Assembly (NCBI GenBank): GCA_964016885.1
Contig: OZ024749.1
Coordinates: 27,962,001-28,026,000, forward strand
Length of the DNA stretch: 64,000 nucleotides
Direction of reading: 5' to 3'
Origin: Eledone cirrhosa
Taxonomy: Eukaryota
Positions 10,555-48,437 of the stretch are shown one piece after another. Within the stretch, counting starts at the first letter, position 1, and each line of letters begins with the position of its first letter. The notes under the pieces were generated by a model. It was not told where the DNA came from. It did not search any database and saw nothing but the letters and a program-made list of their open reading frames with translations. The translations under genes were made by a program, and so were the position numbers.

Positions 10555-10660
10555 ATATTCCTGATGATTTTATATGAATGAAACAGTTCTAGTCCTGTAC
10601 AAACCATTTCTATATATAATAAATATGCCCTTACTTTACCAATGTATTGAGTACCTTTAT
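10555..10660 (+). mobile_element. Hammerhead family A element in TA/CA microsatellite
   Basis: CTGATGA(10561)-TTTTATATGAAT-GAAA-CAG-TTCTAGTC-CTG-TA, followed by the TATTGAGTAC 3' motif. Stem I is eroded. Confidence 0.6.
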
Positions 10661-16018: not shown

Positions 16019-16734
16019 ATATATATATATATATATATACGGGTTGTGTAGTTGATGGATAAGGAGTATTTATAAAAAGAGGAAAGCTAGAATGGTAGAA
16101 AATTTTCCTTCATCAGTTGTCTGCTGGGGGTCTTGCACATTTCAACGCATTATATGTCTATATATATCCTTGTCAAAAAGGGTATGTATTGGTATATCTT
16201 TGTGCGTGTGTCTAGTTACACACAACTACACTACACTTCCATATACTGCCCTATATAACATTATAGTGCACCACCCTGTCTGGTATGGGTTGGACATGCC
16301 TTAAGATATCTTCTTACAGATTGTGGTTAACATCATACCTCTCTCTCTCTCTCATACACACACAGAGTAAGAGGCCACAGTAACTGATACACACACACAC
16401 ACACACACAGTAAGAGACCACAGTAACAGATATACATACACACAGTAACAGACCACAGTAGCTGATGAAGCTTGTTGCTATGCATGTCACAGTATGGACT
16501 GAGTCTATTTTATAGCACCACCAGCACGAGAGTGGTTGCCATGTACATGAAGAAGGACTAAAGTGTCCTCTATAGTTAGTTATATCTTCAAATCCATATT
16601 TCAGATTATTGTTCTCAAACATAAGCAGCTTTCTTAGTGTAAAATTTCACTACAATGAATAGAAATAATCATATCGTATCTGTTGGTAGAAGGAAGTCTT
16701 ATAATAGTAGTTGTAACCACAGGATGGTAGTTTT

Positions 16735-19557
16735 ACCCACACAGTTGTAGTATTAACCACACAGTTGTAGTATTAACCACACAGTTGTAGTATTAACCAC
16801 ACAGTTGTAGTATTAACCACACAGTTGTAGTATTAACCACACAGTTGTAGTACTAACCACAGTTGTAGTATTAACCACAGTTGTAGTATTAACCACAGTC
16901 GTAGAATTAACCACAGTTGTAGTATTAACCACACTGTTGTAGTATTAACCACAGTCGTAGTATTAACCACAGTCGTAGTATTAACCACACAGTTGTAGTA
17001 TTAACCACACAGTTGTAGTATTAACCACACAGTTGTAGTATTAACCACACAGTTGAAGTATTACCCACACAGTTGTAGTATTAACCACACAGTTGTAGTA
17101 TTAACCACACAGTTGTAGTATTAACCACACAGTTGAAGTATTAACCACACAGTTGAAGTATTAACCACACAGTTGTACTATTAACCACAGTTGTAGTATT
17201 AACCACACAGTTGTAGTATTAACCACACAGTTGTAGTATTAACCACACAGTTGTAGTATTAACCACACAGTGGTAGTATTAACCACACAGTTGTAGTATT
17301 ACCCACACAGTTGTAGTATTAACCACACAGTTGTAGTATTAACCACACTGTTGTAGTATTACCCACACAGTTGTAGTATTAACCACACAGTTGTAGTATT
17401 AACCACACAGTTGTAGTATTAACCACACAGTTGTAGTATTAACCATACAGTTGTAGTATTAACCACACAGTTGTAGTATTAACCACACAGTTGTAGTATT
17501 AACCACACAGTTGTAGTATTAACCACACTGTTGTAGTATTAACCACACTGTTGTAGTATTAACCACACAGTTGTAGTATTAACCACACAGTTGTAGTATT
17601 AACCATACAGTTGTAGTATTAACCACACAGTTGTAGTATTAACCACACAGTTGTAGTATTAACCACACAGTTGTAGTATTAACCACACTGTTGTAGTATT
17701 AACCACACTGTTGTAGTATTAACCACACTGTGATAGTATTAACCACACAGTTGTAGTATTAACCACACAGTGGTAGTATTAACCACACAGTCGTAGTTTT
17801 ACCCACACAGTTGTATTAACCACACAGTTGTAGTATTAACCACACAGTGGTAGTATTAACCATACAGTGGTAGTATTAACCATACAGTTGTAGTATTAAC
17901 CACACAGTTGTAGTATTAACCACACAGTTGTAGTATTAACCACACAGTTGTAGTATTAACCACACAGTTGTAGTATTAACCACACAGTTGTAGTATTAAC
18001 CACACAGTTGTAGTATTAACCACACTGTTGTAGTATTAACCACACTGTGATAGTATTAACCACACAGTTGTAGTATTAACCACACAGTTGTAGTATTAAC
18101 CACACTGTCGTAGTTTTACCCACACAGTTGTAGTATTAACCACACAGTTGTAGTATTAACCACACAGTGGTAGTATTAACCATACAGTGGTAGTATTAAC
18201 CACACAGTTGTAGTATTAACCACACAGTTGTAGTATTAACCACACAGTTGTAGTATTAACCACACAGTTGTAGTATTAACCACACAGTTGTAGTATTAAC
18301 CACACTGTTGTAGTATTAACCACACTGTTGTAGTATTAACCACACTGTTGTAGTATTAACCACACTGTGATAGTATTAACCACACAGTTGTAGTATTAAC
18401 CACACAGTTGTAGTATTAACCACACAGTGGTAGTATTAACCACACAGTGATAGTATTAACCACACAGTTGTAATATTACCCACACAGTTGTAGTATTAAC
18501 CAGACAGTTGTAGTATTAACCACAGTTGTAGTATTAACCACACAGTTGTAGTATTAACCACACAGTTGTAGTATTACCCACACAGTTGTAGTATTACCCA
18601 CACAGTTGTAGTATTAACCACACAGTTGTAGTATTACCCACACAGTTGTAGTATTAACCACACAGTTGTAGTATTAACCACACAGTTGTAGTATTAACCA
18701 CACAGTTGAAGTATTAACCACACAGTTGAAGTATTAACCACACAGTTGTAGTATTAACCACACAGTTGTAGTATTAACCACACAGTTGTAGTATTAACCA
18801 CACAGTTGTAGTATTAACCACACAGTTGTAGTATTAACCACACAGTTGTAGTATTAACCACACAGTTGTAGTATTAACCACACAGTTGTAGTATTAACCA
18901 CACAGTTGTAGTATTAACCACACAGTTGTAGTATTAACCACACAGTTGTAGTATTAACCACACAGTTGAAGTATTAACCACACAGTTGAAGTATTAACCA
19001 CACAGTTGTAGTATTAACCACACAGTTGTAGTATTAACCACACAGTTGTAGTATTAACCACACAGTTGTAGTATTAACCACACAGTTGTAGTATTAACCA
19101 CACAGTTGTAGTATTAACCACACAGTTGTAGTATTAACCACACAGTTGTAGTATTAACCACACAGTTGAAGTATTAACCACACAGTTGAAGTATTAACCA
19201 CACAGTTGTAGTATTAACCACACAGTTGTAGTATTAACCACACAGTTGTAGTATTAACCACACAGTTGTAGTATTAACCACACAGTTGTAGTATTAACCA
19301 CACAGTTGTAGTATTAACCACACAGTTGTAGTATTAACCACACAGTTGTAGTATTAACCACACAGTTGTAGTATTAACCACAGTTGTAGTATTAACCACA
19401 CAGTTGTAGTATTAACCACACAGTTGTAGTATTAACCACACAGTTGTAGTATTAACCACACAGTTGTAGTATTAACCACACAGTTGTAGTATTAACCACA
19501 CAGTTGTAGTATTAACCACACAGTCGTAGTTTTACCCACACAGTGGTAATATTAACT
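16735..19557. repeat. Minisatellite, 20-bp unit CACACAGTTGTAGTATTAAC, ~140 copies
   Basis: Direct reading, with occasional 18-bp and point variants. Confidence 0.97.
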
Positions 19558-24824: not shown

Positions 24825-24928
24825 GGTAAGTTATTCCGGGTTGAATGGGTGGTAACTACAGAGATTCCTGATGATTTCTAAAGAATGAAATAGTTCTAGT
24901 CCTGTAAAATCTCATCTATATTAAAACT
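24825..24928 (+). ncRNA. Hammerhead family A
   Basis: GAGATTC-CTGATGA-TTTCTAAAGAAT-GAAA-TAG-TTCTAGTC-CTG-TA-AAATCTC. Stem I GAGATT/AATCTC. Confidence 0.68.
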
Positions 24929-30989: not shown

Positions 30990-32228
30990 GTGTGTGTGTA
31001 TCAGAATGTGTGTATGTGTGTGAATGTGTGTGTATGCCAGAGTGTGTATCAGAATGTGTGTATGTGTGTGAATGCCAGAGTGTGTATCAGAATGTGTGTA
31101 TGTGTGTGAATGCCAGAGTGTGTATCAGAATGTGTGTATGTGTGTGTATGCCAGAGTGTGAATGTGTGTATGTATGCCAGAGTGTGTATCAGAATGTGTG
31201 TATGTGTGTGAATGCCAGAGTGTGTATCAGAATGTGTGTATGTGTGTGTATGCCAGAGTGTGTATGTGTGTATGTATGCCAGAGTGTGTATCAGAATGTG
31301 TGTATGTGTGTGAATGCCAGAGTGTGTATCAGAATGTGTGTATGTGTGTGTATGCCAGAGTGTGTATGTGTGTATGTATGCCAGAGTGTGTATCAGAATG
31401 TGTGTATGTGTGTGTATGCCAGAGTGTGTATCAGAATGTGTGCGTGTGTGTGTATGCCAGAGTGTGTATCAGAATGTGTGTATGTGTGTGAATGCCAGAG
31501 TGTGTATCAGAATGTGTGTATGTGTGTGAATGCCAGAGTGTGTATCAGAATGTGTGTATGTGTGTGTATGCCAGAGTGTGCATCAGCATGTGTGTATGTG
31601 TGTGAATGTGTGTGTATGCCAGAGTGTGTATCAGAATGTGTGTATGTGTGTGTATGCCAGAGTGTGTATCAGAATGTGTGTATGTGTGTGTATGCCAGAG
31701 TGTGTATCAGAATGTGTGTATGTGTGTGTATGCCAGAGTGTGTATCAGAATGTGTGTATGTGTGTGAATGCCAGAGTGTGTATCAGAATGTGTGTATGTG
31801 TGTGTATGCCAGAGTGTGTATCAGAATGTGTGTATGTGTGTGTATGCCAGAGTGTGTATCAGAATGTGTGTATGTGTGTGAATGCCAGAGTGTGTATCAG
31901 AATGTGTGTATGTGTGTGTATGCCAGAGTGTGTATCAGAATGTGTGTATGTGTGTGTATGCCAGAGTGTGTATCTGTATGTGTGTGTATGCCAGAGTGTG
32001 TATCAGAATGTGTGTGTATGTGTGTGTATGCCAAAGTGTGTATCAGAATGTGTGTGTGTGTATGCCAGAGTGTGTATCAGAATGTGTGTATGTGTGTGAA
32101 TGTGCATGTGTGTATATGCATGTTTGCTTCTGTGTGTATGTGTGCATCTGTGTGTATGTATGCATCTGTGTATGTGTGTAGTGTGCTTCTGTGTGTGTGC
32201 ATGTGTGTGTGTGCAGATGTGTGCTATA

Positions 32229-33134: not shown

Positions 33135-33966
33135 ATGTACTCAGACCATTCCAGCTAACTGTTGCAGACACCACCACCACTACACCCCTCCACACCACCA
33201 CCCCCACAACACCACTACACCACCACCTTCTATGTACTCAGACTCAGACCATTCCAGCTATCTGTTGCAGACACCACCACCACTACACCCCTCCACACCC
33301 CCACCACCACTACACCACCCCCACAACACCACTACACCACCACCTTCTATGTACTCAGACTCAGACCATTCCAGCTATCTGTTGCAGACACCACCACCAC
33401 TACACCCCTCCACACCCCCACCACCACTACACCACCCCCACAACACCACTACACCACCACCTTCTATGTACTCAGACTCAGACCATTCCAGCTATCTGTT
33501 GCAGACACCACCACCACTACACCCCTCCACACCCCCACCACCACTACACCACCCCCACAACACCACTACACCACCACCTTCTATGTACTCAGACTCAGAC
33601 CATTCCAGCTATCTGTTGCAGACACCACCACCACTACACCCCTCCACACCCCCACCACCACTACACCACCCCCACAACACCACTACACCACCACCTTCTA
33701 TGTACTCAGACTCAGACCATTCCAGCTATCTGTTGCAGACACCACCACCACTACACCCCTCCACACCCCCACCACCACTACACCACCCCCACAACACCAC
33801 TACACCACCACCTTCTATGTACTCAGACTCAGACCATTCCAGCTATCTGTTGCAGACACCACCACCACTACACCCCTCCACACCCCCACCACCACTACAC
33901 CACCCCCACAACACCACCACCTTCTATGTACTCAGACTCAGACCATTCCAGCTATCTGTTGCAGAC
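33135..33966. repeat. Minisatellite, 117-bp unit x ~7
   Basis: GACTCAGACCATTCCAGCTATCTGTTGCAG at 33241, 33358, ...; 39-aa periodicity in the ORF track. Confidence 0.95.
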
Positions 33967-34098: not shown

Positions 34099-34559
34099 CA
34101 TCATTGTTTTCACGTCCGCATTTTCATGCACATACATATAAACATATATACACACACACACAAACATATATATATATATACACACAAACATATCCATATA
34201 TGTTTATATACATAGCCCCCACCATATATATATATATATACACATATCCAACTCCCATATATATATATATATGCATGTGTGTGCATGTTTATTTAACTAT
34301 ATGTATGCATGCATCCTCAAAAGATATTTACATCCCGAGATATAATAAATGAAGTGTAGTGATGGTGAGGGGGTGGGGAATGTGAGGTGGGGGGGGGGGA
34401 TATGGATGAGGCCAAGAAGCAGGAGTGAAAGGTCTGTAGAATATCTCCCCCACCACACCCTACACCATTCTGTCTGACTCATGGACACTTTATTATGTCA
34501 CTTTGCTCCTGTTAGTCATCTTATTCTCAAGGCACACTCACCACTGCCACACTACTGCC

Positions 34560-36060
34560 ACACCATTGGCACTACCACTGGTACTACTACTTCTTACCAT
34601 TGTTTCCACCACTACCACTGCCATACCATTGCCACTACTACTTCTTACCATTGTTTCCACCACTACCACTGCCATACCATTGGCACTACTACTTCTTACC
34701 ATTGTTTCCACCACTACCACTGCCATACCATTGGCACTACTACTTCTTACCATTGTTTCCACCACTACCACTGCCATACCATTGGCACTACTACTTCTTA
34801 CCATTGTTTCCACCACTATCACTGCCATACCATTGGCACTACTACTTCTTACCATTGTTTCCACCACTACCACTGCCATACCATTGGCACTACTACTTCT
34901 TACCATTGTTTCCACCACTACCACTGCCATACCATTGGCACTACTACTTCTTACCATTGTTTCCACCACTATCACTGCCATACCATTGGCACTACTACTT
35001 CTTACCATTGTTTCCACCACTACCACTGCCATACCATTGGCACTACTACTTCTTACCATTGTTTCCACCACTACCACTGCCATACCATTGGCACTACTAC
35101 TTCTTACCATTGTTTCCACCACTATCACTGCCATACCATTGGCACTACTACTTCTTACCATTGTTTCCACCACTACCACTGCCATACCATTGGCACTACT
35201 ACTTCTTACCATTGTTTCCACCACTACCACTGCCATACCATTGGCACTACTACTTCTTACCATTGTTTCCACCACTACCACTGCCATACCATTGGCACTA
35301 CTACTGCCATTTCTTGTCATTGCTTCCACCACCACACCATTGCTATACCATTGGCACTACCACTGGTACCACCACTTCTTACCATCACTACCACCACTAC
35401 CACTTCTTGTCATTGCTACCATTGGCACTACTATTGGCACTTCTTGTCATTGCTACCACCACCACACCATTGCTATACCATTGGCACTACCACTGGTACC
35501 GCCACTTCTTACCATCACTACCACCACTACCACTTTTTGTCATTGCTACCACTGCCATACCATTGGCACTACTATCGGCACTTCTTGTCATTGCTACCAC
35601 CACCACACCATTGCTATACCATTGGCACTACCACTGGTACCGCCACTTCTTACCATCACTACCACCACTACCACTTTTTGTCATTGCTACCACTGCCATA
35701 CCATTGGCACTACTATTGGCACTTCTTGCCACCACCACCACACCATTGCTATACCATTGGTATTGCCACTTCTTACCATTGTCACAACCACTACCACTGT
35801 CATACTATTGGCACTACCACTGGTACTGCCATACCACTGGCATAATATTAGCACTACCACTGATACTGTCAATTCTTACCATTGCTACAACCACTACCAT
35901 AACATTAGCATACCATGGGTACTGCCATATATTACTATTGCTACCATCACCATAATTGTCTATACTAACATTATCACAGAAATACCGCTGCCATACCATT
36001 GGCACTACCACTTCTTACCACTGCTACCACCACTATTGCCACCACTACCATACCACAACA
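34560..36060. repeat. Minisatellite, 51-bp unit x ~14, then degenerate higher-order copies
   Basis: CCATTGGCACTACTACTTCTTACCATTGTTTCCACCACTACCACTGCCATA; 17-aa periodicity. Confidence 0.93.
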
Positions 36061-44828: not shown

Positions 44829-44880
<52 letters not shown>

Positions 44881-44881
<1 letters not shown>

Positions 44882-47800
44882 CAGAGCATTTATTCCAATT
44901 TCTAATTTCTGCCGGACCGGCAACCGCTCTTTCAAACCAGTTCCTGTACACAGCTAAGTATTCTATAAGTCTCTAGCTGTGTCATTCTCGATAAAAGCAC
45001 TGGATATGTAGTCCTGATGAATTCTAACAAGAATGAAACGCGTAGATTACTTCCCTTGCTTTTATCGAGAATCTAATTGTAATACGTGACGTATTCTATT
45101 CTATAGCGATTAGGTCTTCAAAATGTTTATTATAAACATACAGAATATTTTCGAATATTCTATGTCTATATTCACATATATATCGCTATTTCAGAGCATT
45201 TATTCCAATTTCTAATTTCTGCCGGACCGGCAACCGCTCTTTCAAACCAGTTCCTGTACACAGCTAAGTATTCTATAAGTCTCTAGCTGTGTCATTCTCG
45301 ATAAAAGCACTGGATATGTAGTCCTGATGAATTCTAACAAGAATGAAACGCGTAGATTACTTCCCTTGCTTTTATCGAGAATCTAATTGTAATACGTGAC
45401 GTATTCTATTCTATAGCGATTAGGTCTTCAAAATGTTTATTATAAACATACAGAATATTTTCGAATATTCTATGTCTATATTCACATATATATCGCTATT
45501 TCAGAGCATTTATTCCAATTTCTAATTTCTGCCGGACCGGCAACCGCTCTTTCAAACCAGTTCCTGTACACAGCTAAGTATTCTATAAGTCTCTAGCTGT
45601 GTCATTCTCGATAAAAGCACTGGATATGTAGTCCTGATGAATTCTAACAAGAATGAAACGCGTAGATTACTTCCCTTGCTTTTATCGAGAATCTAATTGT
45701 AATACGTGACGTATTCTATTCTATAGCGATTAGGTCTTCAAAATGTTTATTATAAACATACAGAATATTTTCGAATATTCTATGTCTATATTCACATATA
45801 TATCGCTATTTCAGAGCATTTATTCCAATTTCTAATTTCTGCCGGACCGGCAACCGCTCTTTCAAACCAGTTCCTGTACACAGCTAAGTATTCTATAAGT
45901 CTCTAGCTGTGTCATTCTCGATAAAAGCACTGGATATGTAGTCCTGATGAATTCTAACAAGAATGAAACGCGTAGATTACTTCCCTTGCTTTTATCGAGA
46001 ATCTAATTGTAATACGTGACGTATTCTATTCTATAGCGATTAGGTCTTCAAAATGTTTATTATAAACATACAGAATATTTTCGAATATTCTATGTCTATA
46101 TTCACATATATATCGCTATTTCAGAGCATTTATTCCAATTTCTAATTTCTGCCGGACCGGCAACCGCTCTTTCAAACCAGTTCCTGTACACAGCTAAGTA
46201 TTCTATAAGTCTCTAGCTGTGTCATTCTCGATAAAAGCACTGGATATGTAGTCCTGATGAATTCTAACAAGAATGAAACGCGTAGATTACTTCCCTTGCT
46301 TTTATCGAGAATCTAATTGTAATACGTGACGTATTCTATTCTATAGCGATTAGGTCTTCAAAATGTTTATTATAAACATACAGAATATTTTCGAATATTC
46401 TATGTCTATATTCACATATATATCGCTATTTCAGAGCATTTATTCCAATTTCTAATTTCTGCCGGACCGGCAACCGCTCTTTCAAACCAGTTCCTGTACA
46501 CAGCTAAGTATTCTATAAGTCTCTAGCTGTGTCATTCTCGATAAAAGCACTGGATATGTAGTCCTGATGAATTCTAACAAGAATGAAACGCGTAGATTAC
46601 TTCCCTTGCTTTTATCGAGAATCTAATTGTAATACGTGACGTATTCTATTCTATAGCGATTAGGTCTTCAAAATGTTTATTATAAACATACAGAATATTT
46701 TCGAATATTCTATGTCTATATTCACATATATATCGCTATTTCAGAGCATTTATTCCAATTTCTAATTTCTGCCGGACCGGCAACCGCTCTTTCAAACCAG
46801 TTCCTGTACACAGCTAAGTATTCTATAAGTCTCTAGCTGTGTCATTCTCGATAAAAGCACTGGATATGTAGTCCTGATGAATTCTAACAAGAATGAAACG
46901 CGTAGATTACTTCCCTTGCTTTTATCGAGAATCTAATTGTAATACGTGACGTATTCTATTCTATAGCGATTAGGTCTTCAAAATGTTTATTATAAACATA
47001 CAGAATATTTTCGAATATTCTATGTCTATATTCACATATATATCGCTATTTCAGAGCATTTATTCCAATTTCTAATTTCTGCCGGACCGGCAACCGCTCT
47101 TTCAAACCAGTTCCTGTACACAGCTAAGTATTCTATAAGTCTCTAGCTGTGTCATTCTCGATAAAAGCACTGGATATGTAGTCCTGATGAATTCTAACAA
47201 GAATGAAACGCGTAGATTACTTCCCTTGCTTTTATCGAGAATCTAATTGTAATACGTGACGTATTCTATTCTATAGCGATTAGGTCTTCAAAATGTTTAT
47301 TATAAACATACAGAATATTTTCGAATATTCTATGTCTATATTCACATATATATCGCTATTTCAGAGCATTTATTCCAATTTCTAATTTCTGCCGGACCGG
47401 CAACCGCTCTTTCAAACCAGTTCCTGTACACAGCTAAGTATTCTATAAGTCTCTAGCTGTGTCATTCTCGATAAAAGCACTGGATATGTAGTCCTGATGA
47501 ATTCTAACAAGAATGAAACGCGTAGATTACTTCCCTTGCTTTTATCGAGAATCTAATTGTAATACGTGACGTATTCTATTCTATAGCGATTAGGTCTTCA
47601 AAATGTTTATTATAAACATACAGAATATTTTCGAATATTCTATGTCTATATTCACATATATATCGCTATTTCAGAGCATTTATTCCAATTTCTAATTTCT
47701 GCCGGACCGGCAACCGCTCTTTCAAACCAGTTCCTGTACACAGCTAAGTATTCTATAAGTCTCTAGCTGTGTCATTCTCGATAAAAGCACTGGATATGTA

Positions 47801-48311
47801 GTCCTGATGAATTCTAACAAGAATGAAACGCGTAGATTACTTCCCTTGCTTTTATCGAGAATCTAATTGTAATACGTGACGTATTCTATTCTATAGCGAT
47901 TAGGTCTTCAAAATGTTTATTATAAACATACAGAATATTTTCGAATATTCTATGTCTATATTCACATATATATCGCTATTTCAGAGCATTTATTCCAATT
48001 TCTAATTTCTGCCGGACCGGCAACCGCTCTTTCAAACCAGTTCCTGTACACAGCTAAGTATTCTATAAGTCTCTAGCTGTGTCATTCTCGATAAAAGCAC
48101 TGGATATGTAGTCCTGATGAATTCTAACAAGAATGAAACGCGTAGATTACTTCCCTTGCTTTTATCGAGAATCTAATTGTAATACGTGACGTATTCTATT
48201 CTATAGCGATTAGGTCTTCAAAATGTTTATTATAAACATACAGAATATTTTCGAATATTCTATGTCTATATTCACATATATATCGCTATTTCAGAGCATT
48301 TATTCCAATTT
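44881..48311 (+). mobile_element. Tandem array of 11 x 310-bp hammerhead-containing units (non-LTR retrozyme-like)
   Basis: Unit start TCAGAGCATT recurs at 44881, 45191, 45501 ... 47981, plus a 21-nt partial at 48291. Copies look identical. Each carries GTAGTC-CTGATGA-ATTCT/AACA/AGAAT-GAAA-CGCG-TA-GATTAC. Flanked on both sides by (TA)n/(CA)n. Confidence 0.9.
44984..45072 (+). ncRNA. Type I hammerhead ribozyme (first of 11 copies, period 310)
   Basis: Core CUGAUGA 45014-45020 and GAAA 45035-45038. Stem II ATTCT/AGAAT. Minimal palindromic stem III ACGCGT. GUA triplet ending at 45044. Stem I GTAGTC/GATTAC, extended past an internal loop by 16 bp ATTCTCGATAAAAGCA/TGCTTTTATCGAGAAT. Confidence 0.9.
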
Positions 48312-48437
48312 ATATATATATATATACATACACACACATATATATACACACACACATATATATATACACACATATATATATACACACACATATATACATA
48401 CACACACATATACATACATACACACACATATACATAC

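What the first reader, a model, noticed from the sequence alone, without database searches (positions are those of the whole stretch)
44881..48311. Eleven identical 310-bp units, each with an intact hammerhead: a candidate cephalopod retrozyme producing a circular RNA
Seen: exact 310-bp period, 11 full copies plus 21 nt, no differences noticed between copies, insertion in a TA/CA microsatellite, no meaningful ORF. Each unit has a complete type I HHR (CUGAUGA/GAAA, GUA site at 45044+310n, palindromic ACGCGT stem III, 6+16-bp stem I with an internal loop). The rest of the unit is also highly self-complementary (ACACAGCTA/TAGCTGTGT, ATAGCGAT/ATCGCTAT, GAATATT/AATATTC, GCCGG/CCGGC). Established: non-LTR retrozymes of amphibians, mussels and corals are tandem small units with type I HHRs that yield circRNAs, and minimal-stem-III HHRs of PLEs cleave as dimers. 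Inference: a + strand transcript would self-process into 310-nt monomers or circles. Both array ends fall ~146-167 nt past the cleavage site rather than at it, which fits rolling-circle reverse transcription of a circle by a PLE RT. I am not aware of this being characterised in octopods, but could not search.
Basis: partly seen in the sequence, partly recalled or inferred. Interest (0 to 1): 0.92.

Follow-up and report, generated by a model that had tools for sequence, protein, structure and literature searches.

The report
Mobile hammerhead-ribozyme repeat in a cephalopod
This is one copy of a young, widespread jumping repeat whose RNA can probably cut itself into small circles, and the pattern of its genomic copies suggests that each insertion was written by an enzyme going round and round one such circle, a route long proposed but not yet shown for animals.

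Summary
Observation confirmed: 11.07 identical 310-bp units, each with a type I hammerhead. The array is one of roughly 1,300 or more dispersed insertions of a non-LTR retrozyme family in a cephalopod.

The family has Penelope-type ends: two fixed 3' ends about 26 nt apart, in (AT)n. Most loci have two multi-unit arms head to head (17 of 21 loci picked by internal motifs); the window is a single-arm case.

Each locus is nearly one haplotype. Both arms match in 46 of 56 loci, whereas two random loci match about 7% of the time. In a fully enumerated 9-locus lineage, 3 loci fix their own variant. This favours copying of one circular monomer from two start sites (about 0.7). Four mosaic loci and one long array with block duplications argue that other routes also act. 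Older sister families show C3-G8/U3-A8 core covariation.

Not shown: cleavage, expression, circles, or the partner element (none among 84 loci). Known class, new architecture, and a genomic test of an open mechanism.

The parts
44881..48311 (+). Single-arm array of 11.07 identical 310-bp retrozyme units
   Evidence: perfect period; layout: one arm, end type A
44984..45072 (+). First type I hammerhead with extended stem I (repeats every 310 nt)
   Evidence: fold; Rfam HH9, E 0.003, below gathering score
45014..45044 (+). Catalytic core CUGAUGA, stem II, GAAA, minimal palindromic stem III (ACGCGU); predicted cut after GUA at 45044
   Evidence: coordinates; (two copies of the motif pair as a 6-bp helix, -9.5 kcal/mol); cleavage itself untested
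45045..45354 (+). First complete cut-to-cut monomer (u1-u310), the predicted RNA circle
   Evidence: circular fold z -4.9; circle inferred, not observed
45103..45189 (+). Four-helix domain shared with older sister families, holding start site B and just upstream of start site A; inferred RT-recognition element
   Evidence: 97% of cells paired, 4 of 26 pairs with two-sided changes in 16 sequences (structure was derived from this alignment)
45176..45183 (+). Family 3' end B (about u139, within an AT run so exact only to a few nt); inferred second RT start; not used as an end in this array
   Evidence: (643 + 656 junction matches)
45184..45211 (+). 'Tail' of about 26-28 nt between ends B and A
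   Evidence: compared with the PLE tail in PMC11167929 and PMC8557442
48305..48311 (+). 3' junction of this array at family end A (u165-167); inferred RT start
   Evidence: (633 forward junction matches)
44864..44881 (.). Left (AT)n target flank; 5' truncation junction at u147
48312..48327 (.). Right (AT)n target flank

Best explanation
A young non-autonomous retrozyme mobilised in trans by a Penelope-like element (PLE). Step 1 (inferred): arrays are transcribed, and neighbouring hammerheads, probably pairing through the ACGCGU palindrome, cut out 310-nt monomers that are ligated into circles. Step 2 (ends shown, enzyme inferred): a PLE RT-endonuclease nicks both strands of an (AT)n tract and starts two cDNAs on the RNA, at about u165-167 and about u139. 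Step 3 (inferred from haplotypes): both polymerases run round the same circular monomer for a random number of turns. Step 4 (junctions shown): the two cDNAs are joined by short overlaps or short inserts, giving two arms head to head. When only one start is productive a single arm results, as in the window. Some long arrays later also change by local unequal exchange.
For: Dispersal: 2,542 exact matches to a 41-nt core, control 0; 20,831 matches to a shared motif, 94 of the first 100 listed being this family. Ends: of 21 loci picked by internal motifs, 20 end at u138-139 and/or u163-170 in (AT)n and 17 are two-armed. Of 75 type A ends in C1 1-170 Mb, 72 were fetched and 67 are two-armed. The one non-microsatellite insertion (L034) has a 12-bp duplication. 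Template: 568 of 677 whole monomers equal their locus mode; 34 modes in 74 loci; arms agree in 46 of 56 loci, against 0.07 for two random loci. In the 308-nt lineage (77 matches, 9 loci), L180, L182 and L183 each fix a variant absent from the other eight, in both arms for L180 and L183. Copying typical linear donors should mirror about 23 unit-specific variants between arms in the first 70 loci; 2 loci did. Arm lengths fit an exponential (KS p 0.22 and 0.23). Only 4 of 154 inner ends lie within 5 nt of the cut, about 5 expected. Selection: 0 of 29 locus-fixed variants hit the core and 7 break a pair, against 40 of 81 isolated singletons in these two classes (Fisher p 0.028). Of 18 older hammerhead motif rows (some duplicate views of one locus), 8 are C3-G8, 8 are U3-A8 and 2 are mismatched. 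RT + GIY-YIG ORFs exist in the genome.
Against: No RNA, cleavage or circle was observed. Four loci are not uniform in ways that fit multimeric templates, template switches or conversion: L094 (outer two units of both arms differ from the inner ones), L085, L065, L185. L096 differs between arms. The 45-unit arm at C1 97.46 Mb shows repeated blocks of variants, i.e. local amplification. Two variants that looked private were small lineages of 9 and 2 loci, and uniform donors may be missing from one assembly. The commonest variant (287A>T, 41 loci) breaks the first pair of stem II. The selection test is modest and uses one predicted fold. No autonomous element sharing the unit was found in 84 GIY-YIG loci. 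For one PLE in vitro, hammerhead cleavage was not needed for insertion (PMC11167929). In Xenopus, 8 of 9 predicted dimers did not cleave in vitro (10.64898/2026.07.22.740005).
Confidence: 0.7

Rival explanations
1. Same PLE machinery, but the template is an uncut linear multimer from a uniform donor array. The hammerhead is passive or acts at another step, and circles, if made, are by-products.
For: Mirrored mosaics in L094, L065 and L185. Uncut RNA was the main substrate of the Anolis PLE in vitro (PMC11167929). Small lineages include a long member that could be the donor (19-unit arm). Weak stem III and the stem II mismatch would allow uncut multimers.
Against: About 23 mirrored variants expected, 2 loci seen in the first 70. 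3 of 9 loci in one lineage fix their own variant, and none of the 8 others carries the unit-specific variants of the longest member L054. 34 uniform haplotypes in 74 loci need frequent monomer-to-array steps. Core changes are never fixed.
Confidence: 0.2
2. Short one- or two-unit insertions are amplified locally into satellites by unequal crossover and homogenised by gene conversion (the local-amplification model discussed in 10.64898/2026.07.22.740005).
For: Block duplications in the 45-unit arm; paired variants 7 units apart in L054. Older sister insertions are mostly 1-2 units long.
Against: Both inverted arms are multi-unit and share haplotypes in 46 of 56 loci. Most arrays show isolated singletons rather than spreading variants (111 singletons against 14 partly spread). 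The older families are the short ones, the opposite of growth with age.
Confidence: 0.07
3. The perfect 11-mer is an assembly artefact of a shorter repeat.
For: Zero differences over 3,431 nt; no reads of this genome could be laid. One locus (L081) abuts an N gap.
Against: Other arrays hold unit-specific singletons and locus-specific haplotypes and lengths. At 0.13 singletons per unit, an 11-mer without any has a probability of about 0.25 (my arithmetic).
Confidence: 0.03

Closest known systems
Non-LTR retrozymes of coral, mussel and axolotl (PMC7229834; parts 2-4 of 6 read, supplement unreadable)
   Same: Tandem non-coding units of 150-450 bp, below 50% GC, each with a type I hammerhead and a self-paired circular fold. 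The axolotl Amex1 motif has a single-pair helix III with a palindromic loop; Amex2 has a U-U mismatch at the base of helix II, as in the 287T haplotype here.
   Different: RNA circles and cleavage were shown there and are untested here. Two fixed ends, inverted multi-unit arms and per-locus haplotype uniformity are not described in the parts I read; reverse transcription of circles is only proposed there.
Vertebrate non-LTR retrozymes as PLE derivatives (10.64898/2026.07.22.740005; parts 1-3 of 5 read, supplements closed)
   Same: Non-autonomous hammerhead repeats co-occurring with PLEs; unit length near 310 bp is typical.
   Different: There, sequence similarity to pLTRs was found and local amplification was discussed; no mollusc is among the classes it reports. 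Here no homologous PLE was found, but the insertion ends carry the PLE signature.
Endonuclease-positive Penelope-like elements (PMC11167929, parts 1-2 of 4; PMC8557442 and PMC4209133, passages)
   Same: Two adjacent internal RT starts separated by a tail, an inverted 5'-truncated copy, AT-rich or (TA)n targets, minimal hammerheads with palindromic helix III, and the U3-A8 core variant.
   Different: No ORF. The tail here is about 26-28 nt against 30-40 bp. Both arms are long runs of one small unit.
Viroids and viroid-like circular RNAs with hammerheads (recalled; search listing only)
   Same: Size, self-paired circle, ribozyme processing.
   Different: Encoded in DNA with retrotransposon ends; a hammerhead was found in one polarity only.

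Membership tests
Non-LTR retrozyme | Tandem units of 150-450 bp, below 50% GC | tested here: met
   310 bp, about 34% GC
Non-LTR retrozyme | Type I hammerhead motif in every unit | tested here: met
   11 of 11 cores; fold; Rfam HH9 E 0.003, below gathering score
Non-LTR retrozyme | No coding capacity and no LTR layout | tested here: met
   One 30-aa ORF per unit; loci consist of units only. PBS and PPT were not searched for.
Non-LTR retrozyme | Dispersed genomic copies | tested here: met
Non-LTR retrozyme | Target-site duplication longer than 4 bp, when present | tested here: inconclusive
   Unreadable in (AT)n; one locus (L034) shows 12 bp including microhomology
Non-LTR retrozyme | Self-cleavage in vitro | not testable with these tools
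   Only indirect: variant spectrum and core covariation
Non-LTR retrozyme | Expressed as linear and circular monomer RNA | not testable with these tools
   No usable RNA data (see Tried and rejected)
Autonomous Penelope-like element | ORF with RT and GIY-YIG endonuclease | tested here: not met
   no PLE protein match in the window
PLE-mobilised insertion (works like) | Two adjacent 3' ends separated by a tail | tested here: met
   u139 and u165-167
PLE-mobilised insertion (works like) | Inverted 5'-truncated copy and AT-rich or (TA)n target | tested here: met
   17 of 21 loci two-armed, 20 of 21 in (AT)n; the window array itself is single-armed
PLE-mobilised insertion (works like) | Homology to the pLTR of an autonomous partner | tested here: inconclusive
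   None in 84 of 150 listed GIY-YIG loci, out of 10,596 candidates
Viroid-like replicon | Ribozymes in both polarities; no DNA form | tested here: not met
   One polarity only; thousands of DNA copies

The most novel reading that the evidence does not exclude
Milder reading (about 0.55): each two-armed locus records 'twin rolling-circle' reverse transcription, two PLE polymerases copying one 310-nt RNA circle from two start sites, with only cleavage-competent units founding new loci. Boldest reading, to which the probability given here refers: the circle is also abundant and stable enough to occur outside its host genome and pass between species. The unit is held in 17 public studies under 18 organism labels, and three runs laid each gave one 340-nt contig equal to one of the three commonest genomic haplotypes. 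Library cross-contamination, diet or related cephalopods explain this more simply.
Probability: 0.05. Interest if true: 0.92.

Novelty: new variant of a known kind. Interest (0 to 1): 0.68.

Why it matters
Reverse transcription of retrozyme circles by a PLE has been proposed since 2020 (PMC7229834), and a 2026 preprint still lists the mobilisation mechanism as open. The role of the PLE hammerhead is also unclear, since it was dispensable in vitro (PMC11167929). This family gives more than a thousand young insertions with readable ends and haplotypes. They allow a direct population-genomic test of circle versus linear template, of whether both cDNAs come from one RNA, and of whether cleavage is required. 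It also defines a small conserved RNA domain and two start sites to test with a purified PLE protein, which bears on circle-templated, (AT)n-directed DNA writing.

Tried and rejected
1. DNA search of the own genome with the whole unit returned 0 matches because common words are skipped; patterns were used instead.
2. Expression: no RNA holder listed.
3. Reads: three contig runs gave one 340-nt contig each; a tandem array and a circle both collapse to this, so it is no evidence for a circle. One raw Hi-C run laid 0 reads in 1,938 Mb, which the tool marks as no test. The flank included was all microsatellite, so host presence in those runs was not tested.
4. Partner search: BLASTN, local alignment against shuffles, a motif scan and a covariance model over 84 GIY-YIG loci found only sister-retrozyme insertions in L102 and L131 and a second short hammerhead family in L140 and L141. 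tblastn found no PLE ORF joined to an array or near 30 sister loci.
5. 'Private variants' in the first sample were partly small lineages; the claim was narrowed to the enumerated 308-nt lineage.
6. Run-off at the cut site: not enriched. Inner ends are slightly non-uniform (KS p 0.017), unexplained.
7. One search used a mistyped structure and is void; one search replaces it.
8. An ATG inside the core opens only 19 codons and is lost in the 284 variants (12 loci); rejected as a coding relic.
9. Literature: searches found no paper on a cephalopod retrozyme or on two-armed retrozyme arrays. The giant squid paper lists 235 Rfam hammerhead matches without analysis (PMC6962438, passages). PMC8490949 and PMC6765202 were seen as passages. 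PMC5785218 was not read. Unseen supplements of PMC7229834 and of the 2026 preprint could mention cephalopods.
10. Three look-ups in earlier findings were empty.

Full report
OBSERVATION. The array is as described: period 310 without a mismatch from 44881 to 48311, with 11 hammerhead cores. The ribozyme region folds with z -6.9 and weakly matches Rfam HH9. Stem III is the palindrome ACGCGU, which pairs with a second copy as a 6-bp helix; such hammerheads are reported to cut as dimers (PMC4209133 and PMC6765202, passages). The monomer folds as a stable circle (z -4.9) and has only a 30-aa ORF. Positions below are unit positions, u1 = 45045, the first base after the predicted cut.

HOST. The genome (3.0 Gb) has molluscan hemocyanin genes; I count seven strong unit matches in one gene. 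One unit scores 503 and 498 bits against chains 4yd9_C and 1js8_A, against 369-385 for 8tnv, 8trz and 3j32. That the former are squid and octopus chains, and that seven units is the octopod state, is recalled and comes from no call. I conclude cephalopod, probably octopod.

FAMILY. A 41-nt core occurs 2,542 times. A motif shared by all haplotypes occurs 20,831 times, of which 878 match a sister-family pattern. Junction patterns give 633 forward matches for end A (the reverse count of 1,138 is largely double-counted) and 1,299 for end B. So there are roughly 1,300 or more loci.

ARCHITECTURE. I fetched 88 loci and compared them with the window: 76 have two arms head to head, one ending at A and one at B; one has three pieces; one was cut by my fetch; 11 (the window included) are single-armed. 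Most of this set was chosen by its ends, so the fairer counts are these. Of 21 loci picked by internal motifs, 17 are two-armed and 20 end at u138-139 and/or u163-170 in (AT)n. Of 75 A ends in C1 1-170 Mb, 72 were fetched and 67 are two-armed. At the centre, 42 of 62 junctions overlap by 1-48 nt, 7 are flush and 13 have inserts, several of them copied from the unit. Two internal RT starts with a tail between them (PMC11167929), inverted 5' copies and (TA)n targets (PMC8557442) are PLE hallmarks. A PLE enzyme is therefore the likely writer (inference, about 0.9).

TEMPLATE. Each locus is close to one haplotype: 568 of 677 whole monomers equal the locus mode, with 34 modes in 74 loci. Arms agree in 46 of 56 loci, against 0.07 for two random loci. 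Of the ten disagreements, six involve a variant carried by at most one unit per arm; L085, L094, L096 and L185 are real. The 308-nt lineage was enumerated genome-wide (77 matches, 9 loci). Three loci fix a variant of their own, two share another, and none of the other eight carries the unit-specific variants of the longest member. If both arms copied typical linear donors, about 23 mirrored variants were expected in the first 70 loci, and 2 loci show them. Arm lengths fit an exponential with means of 5.5 and 4.1 units. Inner ends avoid no position and do not pile up at the cut (4 of 154 within 5 nt). The simplest reading is one circular monomer per insertion, copied for a random number of turns from two starts.

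AGAINST THAT READING. L094, L065 and L185 carry variants mirrored in both arms, and L085 switches haplotype within an arm. These need multimeric templates, template switches or conversion. The 45-unit arm shows repeated blocks, so unequal exchange also occurs. One assembly cannot show donors that are absent from it. No RNA was seen.

SELECTION. None of 29 locus-fixed variants hits the core and 7 break a predicted pair, against 5 and 35 of 81 isolated singletons (Fisher p 0.028; 30 clustered or edge singletons were dropped first). The commonest variant makes a U-U mismatch at the base of stem II (41 loci), as in an axolotl retrozyme (PMC7229834). Older sister families (about 70-80% identical, mostly 1-2 units, same two ends and inverted layout) have longer stem III. 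Among 18 older motif rows, some of them duplicate views of one locus, 8 are C3-G8, 8 are U3-A8 and 2 are mismatched; U3-A8 is a known PLE variant (PMC4209133). The u59-u145 domain keeps four helices across 16 young and old copies (97% paired, 4 of 26 pairs with two-sided changes). That structure came from the same alignment, and the sequences are related, so this is supportive only.

PARTNER. The genome holds RT + GIY-YIG ORFs. One family has 96-98% identical proteins, ends in (AT)n and carries a U3-A8 hammerhead with a palindromic stem III. It shares no detectable sequence with the unit. No partner was found in 84 of 150 listed loci.

COMPARISON AND VERDICT. The element meets every retrozyme feature that can be tested from DNA, and it works like a PLE insertion without being a PLE. 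The class is known. I found no report of a cephalopod family or of two-armed arrays; unseen supplements may bear on this. Confidence: mobile retrozyme family 0.95; PLE-driven 0.9; active ribozyme 0.8; monomeric circle as the usual template 0.7. Interest 0.68: a known kind, but an unusually clean natural record for testing an open mechanism.

Noticed in passing
window 24833-24927 and 10559-10620 (+); L140 7510-7707; L141: A second short family with a hammerhead-like core similar to the 287T haplotype, inserted in (TA)n; the window copies are truncated or degenerate.
   Followed up: partly
window 63301 (-), 26644 (-), 54902 (-), 2028 (-), 24534 (+): Further CUGANGA...GAAA motifs, several resembling minimal PLE hammerheads; stems were not checked.
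   Followed up: no
public runs X1-X20: The unit is held at 73-100% of words in 17 studies under 18 organism labels. Three runs laid each gave one 340-nt contig matching one of the three commonest haplotypes at depth 12-26. Cause unknown; contamination is the simplest explanation.
   Followed up: partly
L145-L174, L102 2425-2865, L131 97-205: At least three older sister retrozyme subfamilies with longer stem III, the same ends and short inverted layouts, pointing to successive waves.
   Followed up: partly
L131 4309-7122 (-), L132, L136, L140, L144: Recently active RT + GIY-YIG family with a U3-A8 minimal hammerhead and (AT)n ends; candidate helper, unproven.
   Followed up: partly
L094, L085, L065, L185: Mosaic arrays with mirrored or switched haplotypes; possible multimeric templates or template switches.
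   Followed up: partly
L082 1798-2071: 272 nt of unrelated sequence captured between the two arms.
   Followed up: no
L191 and L192 (C1 97.46-97.48 Mb): An arm of about 45 units with repeated blocks of variants, showing local amplification.
   Followed up: partly
single-arm loci W, L095, L090, L032: 4 of 10 complete single-arm loci begin within u139-u173, an AT-rich stretch; possible capture by the (AT)n target.
   Followed up: no
window 16727-19556, 31017-32102, 33196-33966, 34558-35305: Other tandem arrays with periods 20, 38, 117 and 51.
   Followed up: no
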